Position numbers and translations under genes: made by a program
DNA from: Chiloscyllium plagiosum
Taxonomy: Eukaryota
Reading direction: 5' to 3'
DNA length: 64,000 bases
Assembly: GCF_004010195.1 (NCBI RefSeq)
Contig: NC_057751.1
Span: 5,808,502 to 5,872,501, forward strand
Part shown: in pieces, positions 1,282 through 63,722 of the stretch
How the letters are laid out: every line of letters begins with the position of its first letter
How positions within the stretch are numbered: the first letter of the stretch is position 1
Notes under the pieces: model-generated
Database searches by the model: none
Seen by the model: the letters and a program-made list of their open reading frames with translations, nothing else
Told to the model about the DNA's origin: nothing

Positions 1282-1513
1282 TGGAATAACTCCAGGTCAG
1301 TATATTGTCACCAAATCACCCTTTCTTTACGCATGCATTATACATGACATTGAACCAGCTAGCTCAGAGCTGACTGTTAGAGTGAACAGAACCCCTGATG
1401 TTTCTGTTCTTGTCTGTCAGCCAGGGCTCCCTGTTTGGACCAGATTAACAGCCCCAGTCAGGGAACTCATGTTCTCTAATGTCCACATGGTTGACCTTGT
1501 TGCAATCACTACA
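1282..1513 (-). mobile_element. Solo LTR (short, Gypsy-like family A)
   Basis: TG...CA termini (TGGAATAAC...ATCACTACA) flanked by direct repeat CTTTT (1277-1281 and 1514-1518). Colinear with the copy at 63196-63722. Confidence 0.75.
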
Positions 1514-1888: not shown

Positions 1889-4800
1889 TGCAAAAACATG
1901 ATTGGACCTGGAGCAGCAAATCGGCAGCAACTGAAACCAGGAACTTCTCCACTGGGTCTGAAGCAAACACTGCCCGGTAAACAAAACCACACAGTAAATT
2001 ACCTGAAACACTGGGTCCTAAGCAGACTCTCTTTGCAAAAGTACATAAACTGCAAACTGCATCCTATGCTCCAAAGAGTCCTAGGAAGGATCACTTAACT
2101 GGAAGCTGTCACAATTCACTCCACCAGACCACCGGGCCACTCAAATGTAAGAAACCTGTGAGGAAACGGGGAAAGCGTGCTGGCCTGCTCGTAGGACTGA
2201 AACTACATGGTTTCAAGACCCCTCTTCCTAGCTTACTCCGAGCAAATGTAAAATCTCTGGAGAACAAGATGGATGAACTCAGATTATGGCTTAGCTTCCA
2301 GCGTGAACTGCGGGACTGCTGTGCACTCTGCTTCACAGAAACCTGGCTCAACCCATCCATGCCCAACTGCTCACTTCAGGCTGATGGTTTTTCCATCCAT
2401 CATATGGACTGTACAGCATCCTCAGGTAAGACAGTGGGTGAAGGGGCTTGCTTTTTAATCAACAACCTGTGGTGCACGGACATAGCAACCATTACACCCC
2501 AAACCTCGAATTTCTCACCATCAAATGCCACCCCTTCCACCTACATGGGCATTTACCGCTGCTATACTAACTGCTGTGTACATACCACCACAAGCAAAGG
2601 TTGAGGATGCTCTGGATGTGCTGTACTCCACCACTAACACCCTGGAGACAGAACACCCCGAGGGCCTATTGATTGTAACTGGTGACTTCAATGAAGCCAA
2701 TCTCAGGAAGGAGTTGCCCAAGTACCAGCAGAACATTATTTGCCCCATCAGGGGCCTGAACATTTTAGACCACTGCTACACCACTGTGAAGGATGCCTAC
2801 CGCTCCATCCCCCACTCTCATTTTGGGGACTCCAACCACAATGTCGTGTTTCTTCTCCTGGCTTACAGGCAAAAGCTCAAACAGGAGACCCCCTCGTGGA
2901 TATAGGTCCAGTGCTGGTCGGAGGAGGCAGAGGATCAACTCCGGTGCTGTCTGGAATCAGTTGACTGGGTCATGTTCACTCCTCAGTACCCTGGATGAGT
3001 ACACCACCATCGTCACAGATTTTATCAGCAAGTATGTGGAGGACAGCATTCTGAGAAGGTCAATCCAGGTGTTCCCCAGCAGGAAATCCTGGATGAATCA
3101 GGACATACAGAACCTACTAAAAACCAAGCGTGAGGCCTTCAGATCAGGAGACCCACTCAAATATAAGGAATCTAAGTATGACCTTTGCAGAGCCATTAAA
3201 ACAGCTGATGACCAATACCGATCCAAACTGGAGACCCAGACAGACACCCGGCGATCAGGGCAAGGAATAACTGATATCACAGGTTCTAAAAAGACACAGT
3301 ACAAGATAGCAGACGATGACATCTCGCTCCCAGATCGTCTCAACGCTTTCTATGCTCGCGTTGAGCATAATTTTGACAGAGACCTAACACCTATTCTGAC
3401 AAGATCTGACGAACCTATCCCAACAGTCACTGAATTAGAGGCCAGATCAGATTTCCTTTGTGTGAATCCAAGGAAAGTGATGGGACCTGATGGAGTACCA
3501 GGCTGTGCACGTGCGCAGATCAACTGGCAGCGGTCTTCCTGAGCATCTCCAACCTCTCCCTGAAGCAGGCCACTGTCTTTGCCTGTTTCAAGAGGGCCAA
3601 CATCTTCTCTGTGCTGAAGAAGGGATGATGTTATGTCAATGACTACTGCCCAGTTGCCCTAACTTCGGTCGTCATGAAGTGCTTTGAAAGGCTGGTCATG
3701 GCATTAATCAACTCTAGCCTTCCCCATTACTCTTGACCAACTCCAATTTGCCTATCAGACCAACAGATCCATGTCAGATGCCATATCACTTGCCCTTCAC
3801 TCCTCCCAAGAGCATCTTGACAGCAAAAACAGCTACATAGGAATCCTACTCATTGACTACAGTTCAGCCTTCAACACTATTATCCCCTCGAGGCTGATTA
3901 CTAAACTTAGAGATCTTGGACTAAGTCCAACTCTCTGTAACTGGATCCTCAATTTCCTGACCCACAGGCCACAATCAGTGAAGTTTGGGGACAATATTTC
4001 ATCCTCACTAACACTCAACACTGGAGCCTCCCAGGGATGCGTACTCAACTGCCTACTGTACTCACTGCATACCAGACTTATTCTATTTACAAGTTCGCTG
4101 ATGACACCACCATAGTCAGTCAAATATCAGATGATGACGAAACTGACGACAGATGGGAGGGGGAATACCTGTAAAAATAGTGCACTGAGAACAACCTAGC
4201 TGTCAATGCTGGCCAAATCAAGGAATTCATTCTAGACTTTCAGCGGGATGTTACTCATGCACCCCCTACACCTAACAGCACAGAGGCAGAATGAGTGGAG
4301 AGTGTCAAGCTCCTGGGAGTGGTCATTCACAACAAGCTTTCTTGGACTCTTCATGTGGATGCGCTGGTTACAAAAACCCAACAATGTCTCTTCTTCCTCA
4401 GGCAACTGAGGAAATTTGGCATGACAGCAAATACCCTTGCTAACTTTTATCAGTGCGCCATCGAGAGCATTCTGTCTGGATGTATCACAACCTGGTATGG
4501 CAACGGTACCATTTAAGATCGGAGATGGTTACAGAGAGTGGTAAACTTGGCCCAGACAATCACAAAGTCCAATTTCCCATCTATAGAATCCATTTACCAG
4601 GCCCGCTGTCAAGGAAAGACCGCCAGCATTCTCAAAGATCCATCCCAACCTGGCAATGTTTTTGAATAATTTCTACCATCAGGGAGAACTATTTCATAAC
4701 AGTTTCTACCCTATTGTTGTTAGAATACTGAATGGACTCACAAACTCTTAATATTCACCAGTACTTGTGTTTTTGTTTTTCCTGCTGTTCACCGATTATT

Positions 4801-7069: not shown

Positions 7070-7375
7070 AGGGAGGCAATGGTGGAGCGGTTTTATCGCT
7101 GGAGTAACAACCTGCAAACCAAGGCACATACTCTGAGCACATGGGTTCAATTCCCAACATGGCACATAGTGAAAATTAAATCAATGAAAATCTGGAACTA
7201 AAATTGAGTCTAATGCTGATTGTTGTAAAGACCCACCTGGTTCACTAATGTCCTCTAGCGAAGGAAATCTGCCATCCTCACCTGGTCAGGTCCGTAACTT
7301 TGTGGTTGAGTCTTAACTGGCCCAAGCCAGCTAGTAGCAATTAGAAATGGACTCAGCTTGCAATGCCCACATACC
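7070..7375 (+). mobile_element. tRNA-derived SINE (family B)
   Basis: Box B-like GGTTCAATTCCC at about 7144. Central GGTTCACTAATGTCC...GAAGGAAATCTG shared with 21911-22420. Reverse copies at about 38740-38830 and 45545-45695. Confidence 0.7.
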
Positions 7376-7514
7376 TGGATGAATATATGAATAGAAAGGG
7401 TTTAGAGGGATATGGGCCAAGCGCTGGCAAATAGGGCTAGATTAGTTTAGAATATCTGGTTGGCATGGGCGAATTAGACCAAAGGGTCTGTTTTTGTGCT
7501 GTACATTTCTATGA
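7376..7514 (+). mobile_element. CR1 3' end fragment
   Basis: ATGAATAGAAAGGGTTTAGAGGGATATGGGCC...GGGTCTGTTT...TCTATGA is homologous to the 3' ends at about 29910-30050 and 51285-51423. Confidence 0.8.
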
Positions 7515-9865
7515 TGAACATGGGACTGGGATACCATGGCAATTACAGAAACGTGGCTCAAGGATTGGCAGGACTGGCAGCTTAATGTTCCAGGATACAA
7601 ATGCTACAGGAAGGATGGAAAGGGAGGCAAGAGAGGAGGGGGAGTGGCATTTTTGATAAGGGAGAGCATTACAGCTGTGCTAAGGGAGGATAGTCCCAGA
7701 AATACATCCAGGGAAGTTATTTGGGTGGAACTGAGAAATAAGAAAGGGATGATCACCTTATTGGGATTGTATTATAGACCACCTAATAGTCAGAGGGAAA
7801 TTGAGAAACAAACTTGTCAGGAGATCTCAGCTATCTGTAAGAATAATAGGTTAGTTATGGTAGGGGATTTTAACTTTCCAAACATCGACTGGGACTGCCA
7901 TAGTGTTCAAGGTTGAGATGGAGAGGAATTTCTTAAGTGTGTACAAGACAATTTTCTGATTCAGTATTTGGATGTACCAACTAGAGAAGGTGCAAAACTT
8001 GACCTACTCTTGGGAAATAAGGCAGGGCAGGTGACTGAGGTGTCAGTGGGGGAGCACTTTGGGGCCAGCGACCATAATTCTATTTGTTTAAAATAGTGAT
8101 GGAAAAGGATAGAAGATCTAAAAGTTGAAGTTCTAAATTGGAGAAAGGCCAATTTTGACAGTATTAGGCAAGAACTTTCGAAAGCTGATTGGGGGCAGAT
8201 GTTCGCAGGTAAAGGGACGGCTGGAAAATGGGAAGCCTTCAGAAATGAGATAACAAGAATCCAGAGAAAGTATATTCCTGTCAGGGTGAAAGGGAAGGCT
8301 GGTAGGTATAGGGAATGCTGAATGACTAAAGAAATTGAGGGTTTGGTTAAGAAAAAGAAGGAAGCATGTGTCAGGTACATACAGGATAGATCGAGTGAGT
8401 CCTTAGAAGAGTAAAAAGAAAATAGGAGTAAACTTAAGAGGGAAATCAGGAGGGCAAAACGGGGACATGAGATAGCTTTGGCAAATAGAATTCAGGAGAA
8501 TCCAAAGTGTTTTTACAAATATATTAAGGACAAAAGGCTAATGAGGGAGAGAATAGGCCCCCTCAAAGCCTTTGTGTGGAGTCACAGAAAATGGAGGGGA
8601 TACTAAATGAATATTTTGCATCAGTATTTACTGTGGAAAAGGATATGGAAGATATAGACTGCAGGGAAATAGATGGTGACATCTTGAAAAATGTCCAGAT
8701 TACAGAAGAGGAAGTGTTGGATGTCTTGAAATGGTTAAAGGTGGATAAATCCCCAGGACCTGATCAGGTGTACCCTAGAACTCTGTGGGAAGCTAGAGAA
8801 GTGATTGCTGGGCCTCTTGCTGAGATATTTGTATCATCGATAGTCACAGGTGAGGTGCCGGAAGACTGGAGGTTGGCTAACGTGGTGCCACTCTTTAAGA
8901 AGGGTAGTAAGGACAAGTCAGGGAACTACAAACCAGTGAGCCTGACCTCGGTGGTGGGCAAGTTGTTGGAGGGAATCCTGAGGGACAGGATGTACATGTA
9001 TTTCGAAAGGCAAGGACTGGTTAGGGATAGACAACATGGCTTTGTTTGTGGGAAATCATGTCTCATAAACTTGATTGAGTTTTTTGAAGAAATAATAAAG
9101 AGGATTGATGAGGGCAGAGCATAGATGTGATCTATATGGACTTCAATAAGGTGTTTGACAAGGTTCCCCATGGGAAACTGGTTAGCAAGGTTAGATCTCA
9201 TGGAAAACAGGCAGAACTAGCCACTTGGATACAGAACTGGCTCAAAGGTAGAAGACAGAGGGTGATGGAGGAGTGTTGTTTTTCAGACTGGAGGCCTGAG
9301 ACCAGTGGAGTGCCACAAGGATTGGTGCTGGGCCCTCTACTTTATGTCATTTACACAAATGATTTGGAGGCAAGCATAAGAGGTACAGTTAGGAAGTTTG
9401 CAGATAACACCAAATTGAATAATGCAAAGTTGATGGGCCCTGACAACAATCCAATAATAATGTTCAGAGTATTGAGTACAGGACATTGGTTTGGCCACTG
9501 TTGGAATATTGCGTGCAACTCTGGTCTCCTTCCTATTGGAAAGATGTTGTGAAACTTGAAAGGGTTCAGAAAAGATTTTCAAGGATGTTACCAGGGTTGG
9601 AGGATCTGAGCGAGAGGAAGAGGCTGAACAGGCTGGGGCTGTTTTCCCTGGAGTGTCGGAGGCTGAGGGGTGACCTTATAGAGGTTTACAAAATTATGAG
9701 GGGCATGGATAGGATAAATAGACAAAATCTTTTCCCGGGCGTGAGGGAGTCCAGAACTAGAGGGCATAGGTTTAGGGTGAGAGGGAAAGATATAAAAGAG
9801 ACCTACAGGGCAACTTTTTCACGCAGAGGGCGTTATGTGTATGGAATGAGCTGTCAGAGGATGTG
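7515..9865 (+). mobile_element. CR1 (HER1-like) LINE ORF2 pseudogene, EN + RT, lacking terminal 3' end
   Basis: AITETWL, GGGVA, YYRPP, GDFNFP, KSPGPD, NYKPVSLTSV, QHGF, GVPQGLVLGP, KFADNT and RRLRGDLIEVYK motifs. Multiple stops and frameshifts. Confidence 0.95.
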
Positions 9866-13515: not shown

Positions 13516-15953
13516 GCTCTAATAATATGAAGGAGAAGGGAATAAAGGGTTTTGATCATAGATTTAGAAAAAAGTAAGAGAAGGCTGAAATAAATTCTAA
13601 ACTTTGGGGATGTTTCGTTTTTACCCTGTTTTTGTGCCACATGTTCTACATAATCCTCTGTAATATTTTTAAGTCTTTAATGTTTGTCAGCACAGAAAAT
13701 GTTCATCCTGCTTTACTGTCCCCAAATGGAGTGTGGTCAGTCTTGCTGAAAAGTGTAAAGAACAAAATATGATGACATATTGCAATGCTATCCATTTGGT
13801 TCAAAGCACAAGGGTTGTATTTATTCTCTGTACTTAGTGTTTCATGTCTATTCTTAATACGTCGTACAAGTATAACGGACATATTTCGTTGAATTCCCTA
13901 ATCCAGTTTAGCTGGACAAGTAGCTCAATTGCATCTAGCGTTTCTCATGCAAAGGAGAAAACCTTACAGAAATTTTTGCTTTCTTCTCTGTTGGGATTGA
14001 GTTCTTGTGGAGGTATCGCAGCGAGTGGGCAGCCAATGTTTGACTCCTTCATTACATCTTTTGTAACTGCAAGCCAGAATCTAATTAAATTATTATTAAT
14101 ATAATGCATTTTTCCCCAAGGCTGGGAAGACGTTAACATGGTTAACATTTTAACACAGCTGTTGGCTGTTGACTTTACTGCTATAATATAAGCAATTGCC
14201 TATTAAGGGTAGATTTATTTCAGTGATAATCTCCATTGCTGCAGTGACTTCAGGATCTATTACCAACCAACAGTAAACCTGTGGGAGTTGGATATCTGAA
14301 ATAAATGCACAAAATATTGGATATTAACAGCAGAACTAGTCATGATCAGAAAAGAGGTCAGTTTTTTTTGTGTACACACTTCATCAAATGTATGTCACAC
14401 CTGAAACACGACTGTTTTCCTCCTTCTGACCTCATGGATTTGTCTGTTTTTCTGTTTTTCATTATTGCTGGTTCCACTTGGGTAATAAATGGATTTAAAA
14501 AAAGCAAGAACTGTATGAGCAAATTATCTGTTGCTAGACATGGAAGGAATTACTTTTACTCCAAAGAAGAAGAAAATCTAGACAGTGGAGTTTAAAAAAA
14601 TGCACCAAAGCGATTATTGTGTGTTAATTGTTCAGCAACCTGTGTGTGCTATATTAGGCTAGTTGAGAGAATTGTGGAGGAACCACGATCTTCTTTTACG
14701 TTTTTTTCTTTTGTTGGTAAATGGACTGTAATTTTAAAATATTTTTACTTGGGTTGCAGTACTGCTGACAAAACCATATTTCTCAGCTTTCTCTCGTTGC
14801 TCTGAGAAGGCACTGATGGACCTTCTCCTGAGACTAGCATTTCATGGGAATTCCTGGATTTTGACCCAGCTGAAGTGAGGCAATGATGGTAATTCCAAAA
14901 TTGGATGAAAATTATGACCTGTAGGGAAATTTGGAATTGACAGTGTCTCACTGACAATGCATATATCATGACAAGACTCCTCATGTCACAAAACATCATG
15001 AAAATGTAATGTTTAAATATACTTGAAATGGTGAAATATGATGAAAACATGCTGGTGTTGAGGTTTACAATCAGCCATGTTTTAGAATGGTGGAGCTTCT
15101 GTTTTCCAATGTTAACCAATTATTTTGACATAACTCTTTCTTGCTGCATAAAGTTGGCATAATTGACAATAAATTATTTATAATGACCCTTTTACTTTGC
15201 TGCTGTAATAATGGCAGAGCAATGCAGGGCCACTAAGCTTGTTCACTGACATTTAATTATTTCCCCTCCAGTGCACTTTCTGTAAGTTGCCAGCTGGAGA
15301 TATGAGGTTCATTTTTTGCATATCTGTGCAGAGTAACGTCATCATTATGGGTCTCTGTTTCACTCTTGGCATTTTCATTGGGCAGCTGCGATGCCATTGA
15401 CGTTATAAAATCAGATATACTAAAGTGATCCATCTGTTTGGGCAGCAGGAGTACAGTTGGTGGATCTGCAGGAAGCAGGTCACAGGATGCGTTAAAAACG
15501 TCCATCTCTGCCCGATGAAGGTCAGGTTCTTTCCACTTCTGAATGCTGATGGTTGCACTGATATGAGTATTCGATTAATACATGTACTTACTTTAACTCA
15601 TGTGCTAATCCATTTATTTGAAATAGATTAGTGCTTCCACTGAAATATCAGACAAAGGAAGAGAGTGGAAAGAATTTGCATTTATTATGCTTTGTGATAT
15701 CTCTCAGTGTTTTCTAAAGATCTTCATAATCAATAATTTGGCCCTGATTGTGGTATGTATTAATTCATTACAGTTGGTAACTTATTTCTGTATATTTTCT
15801 TTTCAGTTTGGTTTATTTGTAAATAAGTCGCTATTTTGCAATCCACGGTAAGCATTTCTTAACATGTTTATTGAAATCAATTTGTGTTCTCCCAAAAATG
15901 CACCCGCTTCATCCAGAAGTTTGGAATTTTCTGCATCAGAGATCTGTGCGTTT

Positions 15954-16266
15954 GATTCAATTCCCTACAGTGTGGAAACAGGCCCTTTGGCCCAACAAGT
16001 CCATACCAACTGTCCAAAGAGCAACCCACCCAGTCCCATTCCCCTACATTTACCCCTGATTAATGCACCTCATACTATGGGCAATTTAGCATGGCCAATT
16101 TACCTAACCTGCACATCTTTGGAATGTGGGAGGAAACCGGAGCACCCAAGGAAACCCACGCAGACACGGGCAAATTCCACACAGGTGGTGGCTCGAGGCT
16201 TGAATCAAACCTGCACTCTTGCTGCTGTGAGGCAGCAGTGCTAACCACAGAGCCACCATGCCGCCC
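15954..16266 (-). mobile_element. HE1 V-SINE (older variant)
   Basis: Minus strand reads GGGCGGCATGGTGGCTCTGTGGTTAGCACTGCTGCCTCACAGC. V-domain GGGTGCTCCGGTTTCCTCCCACA. CR1-derived tail GGGCCTGTTTCCACACTGTA. Confidence 0.92.
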
Positions 16267-17087
16267 ATTTGAATGTTGGTACATCATGTAAAAGGCTGCT
16301 ACTCATATGCTGCACCATCAAACCTGAGCCAATCTATTTTGCTCCTGGCTGCCTTCGGATTCCAAAGGATGGTCTTCATCTATAAATTTGACTGATCTCA
16401 TTTGGACTCTGTATAACCAGATATTCTCTATAGTCATCTCATTAAACACCTCTTAAGAAAGGACACAAAGTTGTACGGCTCAGACTCTGAGTTGAAAACA
16501 CTTTTGGCGAGATAAGTCATATTTTGCTGCTGTACAGCCAATCCAACAATCAGCTTGGCTATTCAGCCAACAGTGAGCCAACACTGACCACGTGTAAACA
16601 ATTTTCTCATCTTAGGGAGCCATTGGTCAATTGGAATTTGAACCTAAATGCACTGCAAGACAGTGAGCATGGAAACTAATCTCGCCACTGTGGCATTTAC
16701 GTCCATTTCGCTACGAACAGTTGAGTAATTACCCAATAGCCCACTTGCTTTCTGTTACCTAGAATAGCCAATAGGTCTCAGCAGCATTCAAATTCTGGGG
16801 CACGTAGACTTTATACTTGTTTGGATTCTTTCATAAAAATGATAGGATGAATTGCATTTTTGATTGACTACCTTTTTCAAAAAGGCTTCGGATCAGAGTC
16901 AAATGCCAAAGCAAGTGGAGTGTGGATGACTCCCCGAAATAGTTTAATTACACAAGTAGAGGTGACGACTGATTAACGTCGGTGAGGATGCATCAAAGAG
17001 TAAAACTCTGCCATCACAGAGATTACTAAACAGGCCTGTTTATTCAGCTTACTCTGTTTATTCCCCACATTGACTTCCTCCAACCCC

Positions 17088-17360
17088 AAACAACAAGAGA
17101 AATTGCTGGAAAGGCAGAGCAGGTCTGGCAGCATCTATGGAAAGAAATCAAAATTAACGTTTCGGGGTTCAGTGACCCTTCCCCAGAACTGATGGTGGTG
17201 AGGCAATGTTTTTTTAGACAAGATGAGGGGAGGGGGTAAGGAGTAAATGATAGGTGGAGAACGCGCCCAAAGAGAGAGAAGAGCAATTGGGCAAACAAAG
17301 GAGTGGAGGATGAAAGCTATTATTGGGGACAATTACTGGCTAACAATGGGTTGTGTGGAA
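17088..17360 (-). mobile_element. Penelope-like 3' end / pLTR fragment with decayed hammerhead core
   Basis: Minus strand TTCTGGGGAAGGGTCACTGAACCCCGAAACGTTAA followed by GATGCTGCCAGACCTGCT...TTCCAGCAATTT. Same family as 48105, 53563 and 60896. Confidence 0.75.
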
Positions 17361-17552
17361 GCTCAGACTGTTTGTTTCTCTCACCTCACTTCATTTGACA
17401 ACATCAACAGATCATCCTGTTCCTTTATCCCTAAATGGCTTATTTTGCATTACCTTAAAGGCAAGTGTACTATTTGTTCTAATAACTTCCTGGGACAGTG
17501 AATTCCATATTTATGCCATATTTCACTGAGAAAAGTTGCTCCTGATTTTGTT

Positions 17553-17866
17553 TTAGATTAGATTACTTACAGTGTGGAAACAGGCCCTTCGGCCCAACAA
17601 GTCCACACCGACCCGCCGAAGCGCAACCCACCCATACCCCTACATTTACCCCTTTAACCTAACACTATGGGCAATTTAGCATGGCCAATTCACCTGACCC
17701 GCACATCTTTGGACTGTGGGAGGAAACCGGAGCACCCGGAGGAAACCCACGCAGACACGGGGAGAATGTGCAAACTCCACACAGTCAGTCGCCTGAGTCG
17801 GGAATTGAACCCAGGTCTCTGGCGCTGTGAGGCAGCAGTGCTAACCACTGTGCCACCGTGCTGCCC
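17553..17866 (-). mobile_element. HE1 V-SINE (young)
   Basis: Full tRNA-like head, V-domain and (TAATC)n tail. Near-identical to 36968, 47563 and 48959. Confidence 0.95.
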
Positions 17867-17914
17867 CTTTGCATATTGGATTCTTCAATGACTATTGTGA
17901 AAGTAGTGCAAACA

Positions 17915-24667: not shown

Positions 24668-26580
24668 GTCATAGAGTCATAGAGATATAGAGATGTACAG
24701 CATGGAAACAAACCCTTCGCTCCAACTTGTCCATGCCGACCAGATATCCCAACCCAATCTAGTCCCACCTGCCAGCACCCAGCCCATACCCCTCCAAACC
24801 CTTCCTGTTCATATACCCATCCAAATGCCTCTTAAATGTTGCAATTGTACCAGTCTCCACCACTTCCTTTGGCAGCTCATTCTGTACATGTACCACCCTC
24901 TGTGTGAAAAAGTTGCCCCTTAGGTCTCTTTTATATCTTTCCCCTCTCACCTTAAACCTATGCCCTCTAGTTCTGGACTCCCTTACCCCAGGGAAAAGAC
25001 TTTGTCTATTTATCCTATCCATGCCCCTCATGATTTTGTAAACCTCTATAAGGTCACCCCTCAGCCTCCGATGCTCCAGGGAAAATAGCCCCAGCCTGTT
25101 CAGCCTCTTCGTATAGTTCAAATCCTCCAACCCTGGCAATATCCTTGGAAATCTTTTCTGAGCTCTTACAAGTTTCACAACATCTTTCCGATAAGAAGGA
25201 GACCAGAATTGCATGCAATATTCCAACAGTGGCCTAACCAATGTCCTGTACAGCTGCAACATGACCTCCCAACTCCTGTACTCAATACTCTGACCAATAA
25301 AGGAAAGCATACCAAATGCCTTCTTCACTATCTTACCATTAAGTGTACAAGTCCTGCTAAGATTTGCTTTCCCAAAATGCAGCACCTTGCATTTATCTGA
25401 ATTAAACTCCATCTGCCACTTCTCAGGCCATTGGCCCATCTGGTCAAGATCCTGTTGTAATCTGAGGTAACCTTCTTTGCTGTCCACTATACCTTCAATT
25501 TTGGTGTCATCTGCAAAATTACTAACAATACGTCTTATATTCACATCCGAATCATTCATGAAAATGACAAAAAGTAGTGGACACAGCACTGATCTTTGTG
25601 GCACTCCACTGGTCACAGGCTTCCAGTCTGAAAAACAACCCTCCACCACCACCCTCTGTCTTCTACCTTTGAGCCAGTTCTGTATCCACATGGCTAGTTC
25701 TCCCTGTATTCCGTGAGGTCTGAACTTGCTCACCAGTCTCCCATGGGGAACCTTGTCGAATGCCTTACTGAAGTCCATATAGATCACATCTACCGCTCTG
25801 CCCTCATCAATCCTCTTTGTTACTTCTTCAAAAAATTCAATTAAGCTTGTGAGACATGATTTCCCATGCACAAAGCCATGCTGACTATCCCGAATCAGTC
25901 CTTGCCTTTTCAAATACATGTACATCCTGTCCCTCAGGATTCCCTCCAACAACTTGCCCACCACCGAGGTCAGGCTCACTGGTCTATAGTTCCCTGGCTT
26001 GTCCTTACCACCCTTCTTAAACAGTGGCACCATGTTAGTCAACCTCCAGTCTTTCGGCACCTCACCTGTAACTATCGATGATACAAATATCTCAGCAAGA
26101 GGCCCAGCAATCACCTCTCTAGCTTCCCACAGAGTTCACGGGTACACCTGATCAGGTCCTGGGGATTTATCCACCTTTATGCGTTTTGAGACATCCAGTA
26201 CTTCCTCCTCTGTAATCTGGACATTTTTCAAGATGTCACCATCTATTTCCCTACATTCTATATCTTCCATATCCTTTTCCACAGTCAATACTGATGCAAA
26301 ATACTCATTTAGTATCCCCCCATCTTCTGCGGCTCCACACAAAAGCCACCTTGCTGAGCTTTGAGGGGGCCTATTCTCTCCCTAGTTACCCTTTTGTCCT
26401 TAATGTATTTGTAAAAACCCTTTGGTCTCTGGATTCTTGTTATCTCATTTCTGAAGGCTTCCCATTTTCCAGCTGTCCCTTTACCTGCGAACATCTGCCT
26501 CCAATCAACTTTTGAAAGTTCTTGCCTAATACCGTCAAAATTGGCCTTTCTCCAATTTAGAACTTCAACTTTTAGATCTT
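24668..26580 (-). mobile_element. Young CR1 (HER1-like) LINE, 5'-truncated, nested inside the RTE
   Basis: (TCTATGAC)-type tail at 24668-24695. Highly similar to 8110-9865. RTE reading frame continues across both junctions. Confidence 0.95.
24759..26114 (-). pseudogene. CR1 ORF2 reverse-transcriptase frame, 451 codons open
   Basis: NYRPVSLTS, SQHGF, YMDFSKAFDKV, GVPQRSVLCP, FADDTK and RRLRGDLIEVYK motifs. Upstream in-frame stop at about 26136, no EN domain, and an 81-bp in-frame deletion. Confidence 0.9.
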
Positions 26581-29016: not shown

Positions 29017-29202
29017 TGTGCTAACCATGATGCCATTTTTAAACTAATCTCATTTGCCTGCACATGGGATTGTGGCACTTTCTTCCCTGCCTGTTCATGT
29101 ATCTAAATGCCTCTTAAATGTATCTATTCCTACCAGGTCTCCTAGCAGCATGTTCCAGCTATCTACCACCCAAACATGCTTCTCATTCCTCGAAGTTCCC
29201 CA

Positions 29203-30055
29203 GGTTGGTGGTGAAGGGTTGTTTTCAGATTGGAGGCCTGTGACCAGTAGAGTGCCACAAGGATCGGTGCTGGGTCCTCTACTTTTTGTCATTTACATAA
29301 ATGATTTGGATACGAGCATAAGCGGTACAGTTAGTAAGTTTGCAAATGACACCAAAATTGGAGGTGTAGTGGACAGCAAAGAAGGGTATCTCAGATTACA
29401 ACAGGACTTGACCAGATGGGCCAATGGCCTGAGAAGTGGGAGATGGAGTTTAATTCAGATAAATGCAAGGTGCTGCATTTTGGGAAAACAAATCTTAGCA
29501 GGACTTATACACTTAGTGGTAAGGTCTGAGAGAATGTTGCTGAACAAAGAGACCTTGAAGTGCAGGTTCATAGCTCCTTGAAAGTGGAGTCACAGGTAGA
29601 TAGAATAGTGAAGAAGGCGTTTGGTATGCTTTCCTTTATTGGTCAGAGTATTGAGTACAGGAGTTGGGAGGTCACGTTGCGGTTGTACAGGACATTGGTT
29701 AGCATGGAAAGGATAACGAGACAAAGTCTCTTCTCTGGTTTGGGAGAGTCTAGAACAAGAGGGCATAGGTTTAGGGTGAGAGGGGAAAGATATAAGAGAG
29801 ACCTAAGGGGCAACTTTTTCACACAGAGGGTGGTACGTGTACGGAATGAGCTGCCAAAGGAAGTGGTGGAGACTGGTACAATTGCTACATTTAAGAGGTA
29901 TTTGGATGGGTATATGAATAGAAAGGTTTTGGAGGGCTATGGGCCGGGTGCTAGCTGGTGGGACTAGATTGGTTGGGATATCTGTTCGGCATGGACAGGT
30001 TTGCACCAAAGGGTCTGTTTCCATGCTGTACATCTCTGTGACTCTATGACTCTAT
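29203..30055 (+). mobile_element. CR1 (HER1-like) 3' portion with internal deletion
   Basis: VPQGSVLGP, KFANDTK and RGNFFTQRVV motifs. Tail TCTGTGACTCTATGACTCTAT. Confidence 0.95.
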
Positions 30056-36967: not shown

Positions 36968-37275
36968 AGATTACTTACTTAAGTGTGGAAACAGGCCCTT
37001 CGGCCCAACAAGTCCACACCGACCCGCCGAAGCGCAACCCACCCATACCCCTACATTTACCCCTTACCTAACACTACGGGCAATTTAGCATGGCCAATTC
37101 ACCTGACCTGCACAGCTTTGGACTGTGGGAGGAAACCGGAGCACCCGGAGGAAACCCACACAGACACGGGGAGAACGTGCAAACTCCACACAGTCAGTCG
37201 CCTGAGGCGGGAATTGAAACTGGGTCTCTGGCGCTGTGAGGCAGCAGTGCTAACCACTGTGCCACTGTGCCGCCC
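36968..37275 (-). mobile_element. HE1 V-SINE (young)
   Basis: Near-identical to 17553-17866. Confidence 0.95.
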
Positions 37276-38827
37276 ACAGAGGTGTTGCAAATATTCAATT
37301 ATCTGTGAAAACGTACCTGACATTTTTGGAAATTTCTGTTATCTGCAGACAGAGTCAATAGCCCAGGGAAAACACAGAAAAAGGTTATGTATTGACCACA
37401 GCAAGATGTTTCATGAGGGGCAATGATTCCAGGTTATTATAATATTTGGCATGCAAGTTGGTTTTTGAGGAAGCTTTATCTTTCTGCCTTTGGCAAGCCC
37501 TAATAGCTTATTCGTTGTAATCAGCAATAAAAAAAATTATATGCTCATCTTTCACCCTTTCATCTCGGCAGTGGAGAAATTTAAGCTCCAAGATCACTTT
37601 AGTCATGATGAGCATTGTAGAGCATTTTTTCAAGGTAAAATCAAGTGGACGTGTGGCAACAAGCACAGCACAGTGCATTGCAACTTTAAATTCTCTGTTA
37701 TGATCCTGTGGGGATCTGTAAACCAAAATAATCAAGTTTGCAAAATGATCCCAAAGAGAAAACTACCAACAATCGTCCTCTTTTCGTAGCTGTTTTTTGA
37801 ACACAAATTAGTGTTATTGCAAATACTTTTAATTCACATTGAAATGATATTTTGAAGAACAAGAAAATTTCACTCTAAATACATGAAGATACAACAAAAT
37901 TTAAGATAAGCACAAAAGCTTGTATCATTCCTCACATCAATACTTCATCATATGGCTACCCAATTCCATAACATGCTGTTTTAGATTCATTCAGGATATC
38001 TTAGGAGTCCCATCTGACAGCAACTTTCACCTTTGAGTTTCATAGATCAGATTATCATCAACAAGATACACTTCTATAAACCCTCTCTATCCCAGTTCCC
38101 AACATCCTGACAACATAGCTTTACAGAGTTCCTATTCAATTAGCCAATCAAAAATACCCTGGTTCACAGTTTGGCCAATTGTTAGGAAACAGCAAGCATT
38201 AACGTTTGGTTTTCACCCAAATTTCCAAGTTTTAGATCTTTATTTTTCAGGATGCACAGTGCCACCAAGAACTCCTGTCACCTTTTCGACCCCAACAGAA
38301 AATCTCATCAGGAGATCATTGTTTTTTCCCCTCACTGCAATTCTCACTGTTTCTCTTTCTGACTTTGCTTTCTCTCGTGGCTTCATCTGTGCACTGAATG
38401 CCTTCAGCTTCTCCACTTATAATTCTCCCTTGTACTTACAGCTCTCCATTACGTCTCAGTCACATGGTTTCTTTTTACTTCCTTCATGTTAGTACTCCTT
38501 CCAAATCAAGCGTGTGGTGGTCACGTGGACATTTTATGATCCAGGAAAATTATGATCGATCCATATACATTGATGCAGTGCTTACAAGGTCCTTTAAAAC
38601 ATCCTTAAACCACAACTAGAGATTCCATTGACATTTTAAGGAATTACAAACTTTCCTTCTGGGTCCAAGGCCATGACAGACCTTTCACACATTAATAGCA
38701 ATGGGAAGAATGGGCCAGCATGTATTTACCAGCATCAGGAATGTATTCATCGTCATCATTACACTCTTAATTCCGGATTTTTGTTGAATTCAAATTCCAC
38801 CATCTGCCATGACAGGATTCAAACCTG

Positions 38828-46412: not shown

Positions 46413-47562
46413 GGCAATTGCTGTTCAGGGGTAAAATAAGTGACATCATCTTGTTCTCAAATCACACTGCTATAGATTACCGATTCACAAACGCAGCGAA
46501 ACCATGTCCTTTTTTGGGGGGCAATTTTGATTACCTTCCACAAGAACACAATACCTTGGTAAACCAATAAATTCACTCATGTTTTTGTCAAATTGTGGTT
46601 TCTTCAAAAATGGAAAAATAAGGTATTGAGATTATGCTGATTGCTATTTTCTGATTTGAAAGCCAAGTTTTTATTCATCAACATCAGGATGTCATTTGGA
46701 GAAAATTAATATTTTCCCATGTCAGACACAGAAACTACACAGTGCCCAGTTTCATGCCAGAATCCTTGTTTCCAGATTGGGAGTACAGAATCAGGACAAT
46801 TTACCATTCTGCAGATGCAGCTGGGGATAAATGGATGACTCCCACAAGTGACTTCTTTCACTTATTATCTCTAATTTTCGCTCAAATTGATTCCATGGCA
46901 CAAAATCTATTACACCTATATTATTGCACGTTACCACACCAAAACTTTCCTTTTTGAATGAAGTTGTCCCAACTCCTTTTGATTTGTGCCTATTCTTTCT
47001 GAATATTGATTGCCCTTGAATATTGAGTTCCCAGTCTTGTCATCCTGTAATCACATCTCAGTGATAACTATCAACTTACATGTATTTACTTCTATTTATG
47101 GCATCAACTCATTTATCTTGTTACAAATACTGCCTGCATACAGATAGAGTCTTAAGCTTTAACCATTATTATTTACCCTGGTTCTAATTTCTGCTGCAGT
47201 CTTCTGCTTACGTTTTCTACCCCTATCTGTCACACTTTATTGTTCACCTCTGCACTGCTCTGTACCTCTGCTCTCTTGTTTCTTTTTGATTTTTTAAACT
47301 TTGCTTCAAATTACGCCTTCCCACTAATAATTAGTTCAAAATCTGATCTGCAGCCCTCGATATGATTCATCTTATTAGCAAGTATGGTTCAACTGAAGCC
47401 CATCCCAATCTCTTTCCCCTGTACTATTGCCTGTGCTTTATGAATTGGCACACGTTTCCTACAGCAATCTGTGAGCCACACATTCTCCTTTCTAATCTTG
47501 CACCAATTTGTCTGAAGCTCAGGTATTTTGAAAATTATTACCTTTGTGTTCTGCTTTTTAAT

Positions 47563-47869
47563 GGGCGGCACGGTGACACAGTGGTTAGCACTGCTGTCTC
47601 ACAGCGCCAGAGACCCGGGTTCAATTCCTGCCTCAGGCGACTGACTGTGTGGAGTTTGCACATTCTCCCCGTGTCTGCGTGGGTTTCCTCCGGGTGCTCC
47701 GGTTTCCTCCCACAATCCAAAGATGTGCAGGTCAGGTGAATTGGCCATGCTAAATTGCCCGTAGTATTAGGTAAGGGGTAAATGTAGAGGAATGGGTGGT
47801 TGCGCTTCGGTGGGGCGGTGTGGACTTGTTGGGCCGAAGGGCTTGTTTCCACACTGTAATTAATCTAAT
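47563..47869 (+). mobile_element. HE1 V-SINE (young)
   Basis: GGGCGGCACGGTGACACAGTGGTTAGCAC head, box B GGTTCAATTCC, V-domain and TAATCTAAT tail. Confidence 0.95.
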
Positions 47870-48104
47870 TAAGCCCTGAACTGCTCATAATCCTTCAGTA
47901 GAACCTTTTTCTTCGGTTTCCAATGTCGTTGGTACCTACATGGACTGCAGGAACTGATTCCTTTCCTGACCAATCCAGGATCATCTCCATGCCAGAAAAG
48001 GTGGCCTGAACCTTGGCACTGTGTCGACATACCTAGATAGCCTTTGGGACTCTCTGTCTTTGCTGTAGTAAACTGTATATTTTCTGCAGGTTCTTGACTT
48101 CTCG

Positions 48105-48210
48105 AGTTCTGAGGAAGGCTCACTCGACCAGAAAGGTTAAGTCTGATTTGTCTCTGCAGATACTGCCAGACCTGCTGAGCTTTTCCAGCAATTTCAGTTT
48201 TTGCTTTCTT
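48105..48210 (+). mobile_element. pLTR fragment with decayed hammerhead core
   Basis: CTGAGGA-AGGCTCACTCGACCA-GAAAGGTT followed by CTGCCAGACCTGCTGAGCTTTTCCAGCAATTTC. Confidence 0.75.
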
Positions 48211-48344
48211 TTGGTTTTCCTCAAACTGTGCTATCCCCTATTCTCACGATATGTCTCTTTTCATCCACCACTTGAACAGTGCTCTGGACACAGTGCTATG
48301 ATAAGTTTGCTAATCCACCCTGCTGTCTGTGCCCTTATCCACAT

Positions 48345-48540
48345 TAGGAACGAGGAAGTGGTAGATGCAGGTACATTTACAATGTTTAACAGATATTTAG
48401 AAAAGAACATGAATAAGAAATCTTTGCAGGGATATGCGCCAAGCGGAGGCAGGTGGGAATAGTTTAGTTTGGTATTATGGTTGGCATGGCTTGGTTGGAC
48501 GGAAGGGTCTGTTTCCATGCTGTATAATTCTCTGACTCTT
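48345..48540 (+). mobile_element. CR1 3' end, short
   Basis: EEVVDAGTFTMFNRYL...GYAP frame and GAAGGGTCTGTTTCCATGCTGTA 3' motif. Confidence 0.85.
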
Positions 48541-48958
48541 TAACTTTCTACCTATTGGACAAAGGCACAGGCTGAGGCTCCTTCAAAGCTAAATTCTGGA
48601 TCCTTGTACTCACCTCAATCATGGTCAGATCCTCCAGTGGCTGACCATGACCAAATTTGATGTAATTAGTCTAAGTGGTGTGACTGCCTCCTGAAACAGT
48701 GTCCAGTTCCTCTCTCCCTCCCAGATGAGTCACAGTGTCCACAACTCCATCTCGAGCTCACCAACTCTGATTCAAAGTTCCTTGAGCTTGACCATTTCAA
48801 TACACTTCAAATAGAGCACATTACCACAACAAAAAGGCACCTTACCTTTACCAAAGAGCAGTTTACCTTTTCCAAAGATTTTTCAGGATGGCTTACCTCT
48901 CCAGAATAACTCATGCAGTCTTACCATTTTGCCTGCCACCTCTATTGTTCATTTTTTT

Positions 48959-49270
48959 TTAGATTAGATTACTTACAGTGTGGAAACAGGCCCTTCGGCC
49001 CAACAAGTCCACACCGCCCCGCCGAAGCTCAACCCACCCATACCCCTACATTTACCCCTTACCTAACACTATGGGCAATTTAGCATGGCCAATTCACCTG
49101 ACCTGCACATCTTTGGACTGTGGGAGGAAACCGGAGCACCCGGAGGAAACTCACGCAGACACGGAGAGAATGTGCAAATTCCACACAGTCAGTCGCCTGA
49201 GGCGGGAATTGAACCCAGGTCTCTGGCGCTGTGAGGCAGCAGTGCTAACCACTGTGCCACCGTGCCACCC
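48959..49270 (-). mobile_element. HE1 V-SINE (young)
   Basis: Near-identical to 17553-17866. Confidence 0.95.
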
Positions 49271-50885
49271 ATCAGTTCACAAGTCATGTTTTTAACATTC
49301 CAGTAGCCAAATCAGATCAGCCTGAAACAACTGCTCTTGAACATGAGCAGTTGCCTCTGCGAACCAGAGACCTGCAAAAGAACTCACCACCATTTCTCCT
49401 CCTACAAAAATAATAGGTGTTGTCTTGTGGCTGGGAATTCCAGATTCAGGCCTCTGGTGCCATTGCTGAAACAGTTTCTTTTAATGGAAAATGTGCAAAT
49501 TGAAACTGTTAACTGTCCCAGGTTCAGCTATCTTATTTGTTCTGGCCACTTTGAAGAGGAAGATCCCAGGTAGCAGCAACAGCAATGGCTGCTGATTCGG
49601 GACAGAACTTAGGCTGCTTCCCTGATATCTCATGCCCAACCACAAATTGGATGGCATCCCTGTTTCCAGGATCATTAAGACTGACTCTGTGAAAATCCTG
49701 CCTCCTAACAGCTTGCTAATTGCCAAAAAAGCTGGGGTCAGCTGCTCTGTTTCCAATTCCCACACCGAATGGGGAAATCTGACCAGTGTCTGTAAAGGTG
49801 GGATGTCTGACCTACGCATTCATGCACACAGATTTTTCTCTGCTTTGCCTGTACACCTAATTTTGGACACATTCAAATTCATAGGGCCTGGCATCAGTAG
49901 CTAGCACTGTAAGATCGTTGCTAAATGTGAGTTTTCTCTGCTGAATGGAGCCGTTTCTCCCATGTGGGTCCAAGCACAACGCTATCTCATTTTTCCTTCT
50001 GAACTGGGAGGCCACAGCAGGTCTGGAGTGTGAGTTTGATTCAGTTCCTCCAATACCATTGAGGACAATAGGCAGCAAGATGCTGCTGTTGACCCTGATC
50101 CATCATGATCTCTTTCCCTCCAACCCAAGTGCTCTCATACTCTTCAAGGTCTCCTTAAATATACTTTACTCATTCTTCTGTGAGTGGCCCCATCTTTTTC
50201 TGCTATTTGGTGATGCCATCTCTGGCACACCACACATCCAATGTGTCCTGCTGGAGTCATCTTTCTGTGACAAAATCCCACAATTGCTTTTAAGACCCCG
50301 AGCCCTTTCCTATTGGTCATGTTGTTCCCCATGTTGCTTCTTGGACCTTACTGAGGCAACATTGGTGAAAAATGTCTAACTTACAGGAGATTGGGTTGGC
50401 TGAAATTACAGATTAGAGGAGGCTCAAGGGGCTAGATGGCCTACTCCTATTCCAAACACATATGTTCATATGTGACACTTTCTCTTCCATTCTCATTTGC
50501 AAAGGTTTCATTTGCAGTTTCATTTTCAGTCTGCCATCTGAAATGGAACTATAACATTTCTTCAGTAAGTGATCCCTCCTCTAAGACAGGTACTGAACTG
50601 CACTGACGGGGCAGAAACATCATAAGACTTGATGCACAAGTGGAATGCCATTTTGTCCATTGTTTTTAGGTTGGAAGGCAATGATTTACTCTGCTGTGCC
50701 TGAGCTGAGTGGGCTTAATGTGCCCATTGGGTGTACCATATGAGAAGTATTCTTAATAACAGTACTTCCATCCCTTACCTTGATGCGGATCAAACATAGC
50801 AAAAATTGACACAATCACAGGTAGCAGAAGCAACAAATGTTTTTCCATTGCACCTGGACCCACCACTCAGTGGGTACAGATCATC

Positions 50886-51424
50886 ATGCAATTCTGGTCT
50901 CCTTCCTATCAGAAAGTTGTTGTGAAAGTTGAATGGGTTCAGAAAAGATTTACAAGGACATTGCCACGGTTGGAGGATTTGACCTACAGGGAGAGGCTGA
51001 ATAGGCTGGGGCTGTTTTCCCTGGACCGTTGAAGGTTGAGGGGTGACCTTATAGAGGTTTATAAAATCATGAGGGGTACAGATAGGATAAATAGACAAAG
51101 TCCTTTCTCTGGGGTGGGGGAGTCCAGAACTAGAGGGCATAGGTTTAGGGTGAGAGGGGAAAGATATAAAAGGGACCTAAGGAGTAATGTTTTTACACAG
51201 AGGGTGGTGCGTGTATGGAATGAGCTGCCAGAGGAAGTGGTGGAGGCTGTACAATTCCAACATTTAAAAAGCATCTGGATGGGTATATGAATAGGAAGGC
51301 TTTAGAGGGATATGGGCCAAGTGCTGGCAAATGGGACTAGATTAGGTTGGACTATGTGGTCGGCATGGACAAGTTGCACTGAAGAGTCTGTTTCCGTGCT
51401 GCACATCTCTATGACTCTATGACT
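50886..51424 (+). mobile_element. CR1 (HER1-like) 3' portion
   Basis: RGDLIEVYKIMRG...RGHRFRVRG motifs. Tail TCTATGACTCTATGACT. Confidence 0.95.
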
Positions 51425-63195: not shown

Positions 63196-63722
63196 TGAAA
63201 TAATTCCACAGAGGTCGGTATCCCATCATGAAGACACTCTTTTCTTCACATGCCATTATACACTTCACTGATGTAGCTTCCTCAGAGCAAGCTGTCAGAG
63301 TGAACAGAACCTCTGACACTCCTGTTTCTTTTCTCTTCAGGTGTCTGCCACCCTTTTTAAAAATTTTTCTTGTTTTCCTCTTTTTTTCAGGGTGTCTGAT
63401 ACTCCAGTTTTCTTTTTTCCTCACCTTGCATGACCGCCTAACCACAGGAGTGCTTATTTTTCCCCAACACCCATGGTATGTATGTGCAGGTGTAGGACAC
63501 AGTGAAGAACTAACAAGTGTGCAAATCTTTATTTGTATTCCACCACCAGGAAAAAAGGAAGCACCAGAGTGGCCAGTGACACGCAGTGCCCTTCTCAACA
63601 AAGGGTGACACTTCTGTTTCTATTTGTCAGCCAGGGATCCCGGATTGGACCAGATTAATGGCCCCAATTGGGCACTTAGATTCTGTGAGGTCCACCTAGC
63701 TGACCTTGTTACAATTACTGCA
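63196..63722 (-). mobile_element. Solo LTR (family A) interrupted by a retroposed insert
   Basis: TGAAATAA...ATTACTGCA termini. TSD CACA (63192-63195 and 63723-63726). Colinear with 1282-1513 once 63330-63621 is removed. Confidence 0.8.
63330..63605 (-). mobile_element. Non-LTR retroelement 3' end (L1/Tx1-like hallmarks)
   Basis: 16-bp TSD TGACACT[C/T]CTGTTTCT (63314-63329 and 63606-63621). Minus-strand AATAAA at 63528-63533. A-rich tail at 63330-63420. Confidence 0.7.

What the first reader, a model, noticed from the sequence alone, without database searches (positions are those of the whole stretch)
63196..63722. Retroposed insert inside a solo LTR whose tail carries serial copies of its own target site: candidate LTR-targeting retroelement
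Seen: a 276-bp insert splits LTR family A with a 16-bp TSD, and the uninterrupted LTR at 1282-1513 shows the empty site. On the minus strand the insert reads 3'UTR, AATAAA, imperfect hairpin, A-run, AACTGGAGTATCAGACACCCTG, A-rich run, GGGTGGCAGACACCTG, A-rich run, TSD (AGAAACAGGAGTGTCA). The two tail blocks resemble the target: TCTGATACTCCAGTTTT (63395-63411) matches 63312-63328 at 14/17, and 63344-63358 matches at 11/15. Both continue with CAC(C)CTG rather than the local GGTTCTG, so they were not copied from this locus. Known: Tx1-group L1-clade elements are often sequence-specific (Xenopus Tx1L inserts into another transposon), and L1-type elements transduce 3' flanks. Inference: parent and grandparent copies sat at the same position in other copies of this LTR, and the tail records repeated site-specific targeting of one TE by another.
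Basis: partly seen in the sequence, partly recalled or inferred. Interest (0 to 1): 0.72.

Follow-up and report, generated by a model that had tools for sequence, protein, structure and literature searches.

The report
LINE tail logs earlier landing sites
A short remnant of a Tx1-type jumping gene sits just behind the TATA-like box of another jumping gene's end repeat, where most sampled copies of its family sit, and its tail holds two non-local pieces of that same landing site, likely carried over from earlier landing places; this is real but combines habits already known from other elements.

Summary
The 276-bp insert (63330-63605, minus) is the 3' UTR of a high-copy Tx1-clade LINE (ORF2 53% identical to Xenopus Tx1L). 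The host is a ~236-bp Gypsy-type LTR. Of copies chosen without regard to flanks, 22 of 29 and 45 of 69 are LTR-associated; 52 of 67 5' junctions lie at +13 to +18 of the TATA-like box, none in the opposite orientation. The two tail blocks match real LTR variants better than the local site and end at the commonest block end (+26). Such blocks are common, almost always non-local (22 of 23), and one source-daughter pair (L006 to L010) shows serial carry-over directly. No parent was found for this window's own blocks, and block-only orphan inserts exist, so its genealogy is inferred. LTR-targeting Tx1, target carry-over (R1) and concatenated transductions (SVA) are each published. The scan found this system, and tail blocks, before on other DNA of this genome. 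Verdict: new variant of a known kind.

The parts
63196..63722 (-). Host solo LTR of a Gypsy-type retrotransposon, split by the insert; TG...CA ends
   Evidence: relatives adjoin RNase H and integrase remnants
63606..63722 (-). LTR 5' half: CCAAT at 63644-63648, TATA-equivalent position +1 at 63622 (promoter labels from motif and spacing only)
63606..63621 (-). 5' copy of the 16-bp target site duplication (LTR +2 to +17)
63422..63605 (-). 5'-truncated 3' UTR of the Tx1-clade LINE, with AATAAA (63528-63533) and degraded terminal hairpin
   Evidence: (best relatives 88-91%)
63412..63421 (-). First A-rich run
63388..63411 (-). Tail block 1: non-local LTR piece ending at +26; likely the older (grandparent) landing site
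63359..63387 (-). Second A-rich run
63338..63358 (-). Tail block 2: non-local LTR piece ending at +26; likely the parent's landing site, or an orphan insert
63330..63337 (-). Last A-rich run
63314..63329 (-). 3' copy of the target site duplication
63196..63313 (-). LTR 3' half, local variant that differs from both blocks after +19
1282..1513 (-). Uninterrupted copy of the same LTR family with a perfect 5-bp TSD (empty site)

Best explanation
The insert is a 5'-truncated copy of a Tx1-clade LINE whose family sits mostly at one site just behind the TATA-like box of a Gypsy-type LTR, and its two tail blocks are pieces of other LTR copies that were likely added in two successive rounds of 3' read-through and retroposition. 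Shown: site, orientation and offset; non-local origin of blocks; one source-daughter pair in which the daughter carries the source's old block plus the source's own LTR flank and a new A-tail. Inferred: the APE endonuclease nicks the T-rich bottom strand at about +2 to +4 and the top strand near +13 to +18. RNA from a copy in an LTR often runs through the A-tail into the LTR, ends (often at +25 to +30) and gains a new A-tail. If that terminal A-tail primes reverse transcription, the flank is fixed as a block. Because most ancestors sat at the same site, each carried piece is a target copy. The block nearest the UTR would be the oldest.
For: Targeting: 22 of 29 (UTR-body query) and 45 of 69 (ORF2 query) loci are LTR-associated, while LTRs occur about twice per 186 kb of random DNA. 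52 of 67 5' junction rows lie at +13 to +18, 0 opposite. Non-local: 22 of 23 blocks are under 95% identical to the local flank, median 0.71 against 0.74 for unrelated copies. Pair: L006 (C43) and L010 (C24) share 339 bp at 94%, bounded by TSD and A-tail; genome-wide the best non-self hit is 95%, the next 82%; the carried flank matches L006 at 66 of 68, next best 61 of 68 among 143 stretches. Attached rather than separate: none of about 65 first-position units is a block (binomial 3.5e-4). Two sources: the window's blocks differ at 6 of 22 columns (P 0.005-0.02 under 8-10% post-insertion decay, 0.35 under 22% between-copy distance). A shared end at +26 is expected: 6 of 24 genome-wide blocks end there.
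Against: No sibling or parent of the window's blocks was found (exact pattern only here; 3 occupied variant LTRs have no close UTR). Orphan block-only inserts exist (L287, L290), and the genome-wide contrast of 3 against 24 was not significant with my small denominators (Fisher p 0.22). L020 holds two near-identical blocks and L247 one local-looking block, so duplication also occurs. How RNA ends form is unresolved: 23 of 46 blocks end at +41 to +95 with no AATAAA/ATTAAA 10-40 nt upstream, and the window's blocks have none. About a quarter to a third of sampled copies show no LTR link, several with assembly gaps.
Confidence: 0.72

Rival explanations
1. One or both blocks are separate, very short 'orphan' insertions at the same regenerated site: reverse transcription copied only an A-tail and a piece of read-through LTR, and the UTR landed in front later. 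The blocks would still come from other LTR-embedded copies, but would not be this copy's own genealogy.
For: Two LTRs hold exactly such block-only inserts (L287, L290). Stacking at this site is very common. Orphan transductions are described for L1 and SVA (PMC12593883, passages).
Against: 0 of about 65 first-position units are blocks against 46 blocks behind 348 tails. L006/L010 shows blocks travelling with the UTR.
Confidence: 0.17
2. One transduced block was doubled, by re-priming during reverse transcription or by later tandem duplication, so only one earlier site is recorded.
For: Both blocks end at the same base and both read CAC rather than the common CAT variant. L020 shows a doubled block.
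Against: 6 differences in 22 columns, too many for post-insertion decay (A-rich contexts may decay faster). The spacers differ. +26 is the modal end anyway.
Confidence: 0.09
3. The blocks are local duplications of the target, chance matches, or a programmed RNA guide that directs targeting.
For: Block 2 against the local site alone is not significant. Target sequence at the RNA 3' end is proposed to anneal to the target in R1 (PMC2718515, passages).
Against: The continuation differs from the local site and matches real LTR variants. Most tails lack blocks. A ferritin-like processed pseudogene with no target homology sits at the exact site with a TSD (L027, Pfam E 0.033 only), which points to protein-directed targeting.
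Confidence: 0.02

Closest known systems
Tx1L of Xenopus laevis (UniRef YTX2_XENLA, P0005)
   Same: ORF2 53% identical over 90% of a 704-aa piece; same clade with SH-aLRT 100 in a quick tree; specific insertion into another transposon (PMC1950540, passages).
   Different: Its target is the DNA transposon Tx1D, not an LTR.
Crocodilian Tx1-8_Crp and Tx1-4_AMi; Tx1-Mar with SINEU (Kojima 2015, PMC4494074; sections 15 and 20 read, other passages; supplement not available)
   Same: [quoted passage not shown]
   Different: The text I read gives no position in the LTR, no LTR-derived leader and no tail blocks; the unseen supplement may.
R1 of Drosophila (Stage and Eickbush 2009, PMC2718515, passages)
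   Same: APE-type site-specific element, 14-bp TSD, tandem arrays at the TSD, up to 14 nt of downstream target carried to new sites.
   Different: Target is homogenised 28S rDNA, so carried pieces cannot be told apart; no serial blocks in the passages read.
Concatenated and ultra-short 3' transductions of human SVA (PMC12593883, passages)
   Same: Transductions accumulate over generations; ultra-short ones carry the source's TSD; orphans occur.
   Different: SVA/L1 insert nearly anywhere, so the carried pieces are unrelated sequences and not copies of one target.

Membership tests
Tx1 clade non-LTR retrotransposon | ORF2 with APE endonuclease then RT | tested here: met
   Copy L274: Exo_endo_phos E 1.3e-6, RVT_1 E 3.7e-24; weak zf-RVT near the C-terminus, E 1.2e-4
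Tx1 clade non-LTR retrotransposon | ORF2 groups with Tx1L | tested here: met
   53% to P0005; clade with P0005 and two turtle proteins, SH-aLRT 100 (quick tree, 26 of 99 hits used, midpoint root, no labelled L1 outgroup)
Tx1 clade non-LTR retrotransposon | Upstream ORF1 with a CCHC-type knuckle | tested here: inconclusive
   An upstream ORF ending in a C-x2-C...H...C-like motif is present with 150 scored genome hits, but has no Pfam hit
Tx1 clade non-LTR retrotransposon | A-rich 3' tail, TSD, 5' truncation; the window UTR belongs to this element | tested here: met
   the same UTR follows the ORF2 end in near-full-length copies
Target-specific Tx1 family (Kojima's criterion: over 20% of flanks) | One repeat type in over 20% of flanks | tested here: met
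   22 of 29 and 45 of 69; criterion
Target-specific Tx1 family (Kojima's criterion: over 20% of flanks) | Endonuclease cleaves the target specifically | not testable with these tools
   Needs a nicking assay
Crocodilian LTR-targeting Tx1-8_Crp / Tx1-4_AMi lineage | Same lineage and same LTR site | not testable with these tools
   Sequences and supplement unavailable
Ty3/Gypsy LTR (host repeat) | TG...CA ends, short TSD, RNase H and integrase in the adjoining internal region | tested here: met
   5-bp TSD at 4/5 or better in 7 of 9 copies that could be scored; RT_RNaseH E 2e-16, weak integrase hits. The Mag-lineage label is recalled, not tested
Concatenated 3' transduction | Daughter carries source TSD and flank, and a source locus is found | tested here: met
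   L006 to L010
Concatenated 3' transduction | Source locus found for the window's own blocks | tested here: not met
   the sources may be lost, mutated or in gaps

The most novel reading that the evidence does not exclude
This Tx1 family is a promoter parasite: it cuts between the TATA box and the start site of about 40,000 Gypsy LTRs, full-length copies rebuild the promoter with an LTR-derived leader, any stub landing there (even a 230-bp ORF-less UTR such as L006) becomes a source element, and the tails keep an ordered log from which a multi-generation insertion genealogy can be read.
Probability: 0.3. Interest if true: 0.65.

Novelty: new variant of a known kind. Interest (0 to 1): 0.42.

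Why it matters
Because the target copies are about 20% diverged, each carried block works as a barcode of an earlier landing site, so source elements and insertion order can be traced for a site-specific LINE, which rDNA-targeting elements do not allow. It also gives a very large natural data set for Tx1 endonuclease specificity, and shows a LINE disrupting the core promoter region of another retrotransposon's LTRs. Each single principle is already published.

Tried and rejected
Generic endonuclease family search was not useful and was not followed. An ungapped 12-base junction score was too noisy and was replaced by gapped alignment to real LTR copies. The L093-type 5' end found no match among the ORF1 loci. 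Dropped rows: L102 (flank compared with itself); L247/L258 as a pair (97% over 1.1 kb to a contig end, likely haplotype duplicates); pattern-selected loci L232-L258 were kept out of the block-end counts of 46 but are inside the 23 comparisons and the 67 junctions, where two rows are double counts. A poly(A)-signal explanation of block ends was tested and not supported. RNA: no RNA holder listed. Family 3' UTRs are abundant and strand-biased in one poly(A) single-cell run (1419 reads laid), but internal priming on genomic A-tails would look the same, and the library shows no starts. The window locus had 3 partial reads. Rfam found nothing for the L209 first unit. PMC1074724 (R1Bm read-through) was not held. 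Five literature searches listed no paper on this family; most subscription papers and Repbase are not searched.

Full report
Observation. The insert is 63330-63605 (276 bp), with a 16-bp TSD at 63314-63329 and 63606-63621, 15 of 16 identical. On the minus strand it reads UTR, AATAAA, degraded hairpin, A-run, block 1 (63388-63411), A-run, block 2 (63338-63358), A-run, TSD. The 14/17 match is reached in 5 of 5000 shuffles, the 11/15 match in 6.5%. Against a real LTR copy of the matching variant the blocks match 21 of 23 and 19 of 23 (terminal base added).

The insert. It has about 2,500 first-look candidates in the 3.56-Gb genome, with best relatives at 88-91%. Upstream, longer copies carry an ORF2 end, and near-full-length copies have an upstream ORF and an APE-RT ORF2. 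The best named hit is Xenopus Tx1L, 53% over 90% of a 704-aa piece. A quick tree of 28 rows joins it with Tx1L and two turtle proteins at SH-aLRT 100. No intact full ORF2 was seen among the 40 ten-kb regions fetched. The host lineage was not determined; a stingray protein is 63% identical and earlier AI notes say shark-type.

The host repeat. It is about 236 bp, TG...CA, with CCAAT, TATA-like and AATAAA motifs on the strand of the insert (promoter labels rest on motif and spacing only). 5-bp TSDs score 4/5 or better in 7 of 9 copies. Adjoining internal remnants hit RT_RNaseH (E 2e-16) and weakly integrase, so it is Gypsy-type. Two full copies and no UTR lay in 185,892 random bases, which extrapolates roughly to 40,000 copies.

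Targeting. Among loci chosen without regard to flanks, 22 of 29 (UTR-body query; 9 with both LTR halves, 13 with 3' LTR sequence only) and 45 of 69 (ORF2 query) are LTR-associated; 7 more have only the core motif and 24 show none, several with gaps. 3'-only cases can be carried blocks and not a local LTR. Of 67 5' junction rows, 52 lie at +13 to +18 and none is in the opposite orientation; the window's is +18. Stacked arrays separated by the TSD are common.

Tail blocks. 46 LTR-type blocks were found behind 348 tails in loci not selected for blocks; that set includes the 30 loci found with the tail-bearing query and the window's own block 1. 11 of 46 end at +25 to +30. A genome-wide pattern gave 24 distinct blocks, 6 ending at +26 and 3 at +27 (my count of overlapping rows), so the shared end of the window's blocks is ordinary. 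22 of 23 blocks differ from their local flank, median identity 0.71 against 0.74 for unrelated copies. Eight LTR copies carry the exact variant of block 1; 5 are empty and 3 hold insertions at the site, none close to this UTR. The exact block plus A-run occurs only here.

Direct evidence of serial carry-over. L006 is a UTR-only insert inside an LTR followed by a PBS-like motif and internal sequence; its tail has one foreign block. L010, on another contig, has the same UTR, tail and block, then L006's TSD and LTR flank to about +69, then a new A-tail: 339 bp at 94%, with no similarity of that level outside. It is the only close hit genome-wide (95% against 82%), and the carried flank matches L006 at 66 of 68 against 61 of 68 for the next of 143 stretches. 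L169/L170 carry L006's 5' TSD, junction and UTR at 152 of 155. A lost near-twin of L006 as the true source cannot be excluded.

Rivals. Block-only orphan inserts exist (L287, L290), but none of about 65 first-position units is a block (3.5e-4 for n 64); the genome-wide version of this contrast was not significant (p 0.22). Doubling occurs (L020), but the window's blocks differ at 6 of 22 columns, P 0.005-0.02 under 8-10% decay (the 8% comes from 11 TSD pairs after dropping 4 with over 3 mismatches; with all 15 pairs the rate is 16% and P 0.13). A ferritin-like processed pseudogene at the exact site argues against an RNA guide (weak Pfam support).

Transcription source. Of 20 ORF1-bearing loci, 3 begin with an LTR-derived leader running to about +78, 1 has part of it, 7 begin with a fused piece of an upstream copy's UTR, and 9 gave no anchor. 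This fits transcription from outside the element. Against a simple TATA-driven start: the L006 daughters include sequence from +7 onward, upstream of where such a start would be predicted. RNA data could not decide. Half of the block ends have no poly(A) signal nearby, so RNA 3'-end formation is open.

Known context. Kojima 2015 reports crocodilian Tx1 families preferring LTR retrotransposons (PMC4494074, section 15; supplement unseen and may give positions). R1 forms arrays at its TSD and carries downstream target (PMC2718515, passages). SVA accumulates concatenated and ultra-short transductions (PMC12593883, passages). 3' transduction by R1Bm and R7Ag is cited in PMC7265360 (passages). Searches listed no paper on this family. 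The scan noted the system many times and tail blocks twice; those notes are not evidence, but two gave me papers. Verdict: real, new variant of a known kind, interest 0.42.

Noticed in passing
L027:2410-2790 (G000:C26): 5'-truncated ferritin-like processed pseudogene with A-tail and TSD at the same LTR site: a cellular mRNA likely retroposed in trans to the target.
   Followed up: partly
L104:6777-7400, L109, L135, L209:695-1130: A second A-tailed element with a different 3' end stacks at the same site; no Rfam hit; not identified (earlier notes call similar ones passengers).
   Followed up: partly
L092 minus strand, about 5168: A short piece that looks like CR1 sequence (by eye) with an A-tail is the first unit at the LTR site.
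   Followed up: no
L271, L272, L275 (5' ends): Full-length copies start with about 78 bases of LTR sequence from the TATA region; 7 others start with a fused upstream UTR piece.
   Followed up: partly
L010, L064, L068, L073, L127: Units within one array often share the same 5' junction but have different tails, suggesting junction formation by pairing with a neighbour.
   Followed up: no
L169 / L170 (C24, C10): A near-identical multi-unit composite, containing L006's junction, lies in a similar repeat context on two contigs; L170 is next to a gap.
   Followed up: partly
L064/L118 and L118/L135: Internal array junctions shared between contigs, suggesting whole array pieces are retroposed.
   Followed up: partly
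L018, L272, L069 3' flanks; L093 5' part: A related LTR subfamily with a different sequence behind the TATA region is targeted too, and an element about 73% identical in the ORF1 region begins with that variant.
   Followed up: no
window 7375-9865, 24671-26580, 29202-30055, 50885-51424; 1981-4112; 15951-17879, 36968-37276, 47560-49272: Several other RT-bearing LINE fragments (CR1-like by eye) and a ~310-bp interspersed repeat in several copies.
   Followed up: no
L099:757-2061: Intact single-exon rhodopsin-family GPCR ORF (435 aa, 7tm_1 E 1.8e-46) about 5 kb from a Tx1 copy.
   Followed up: no
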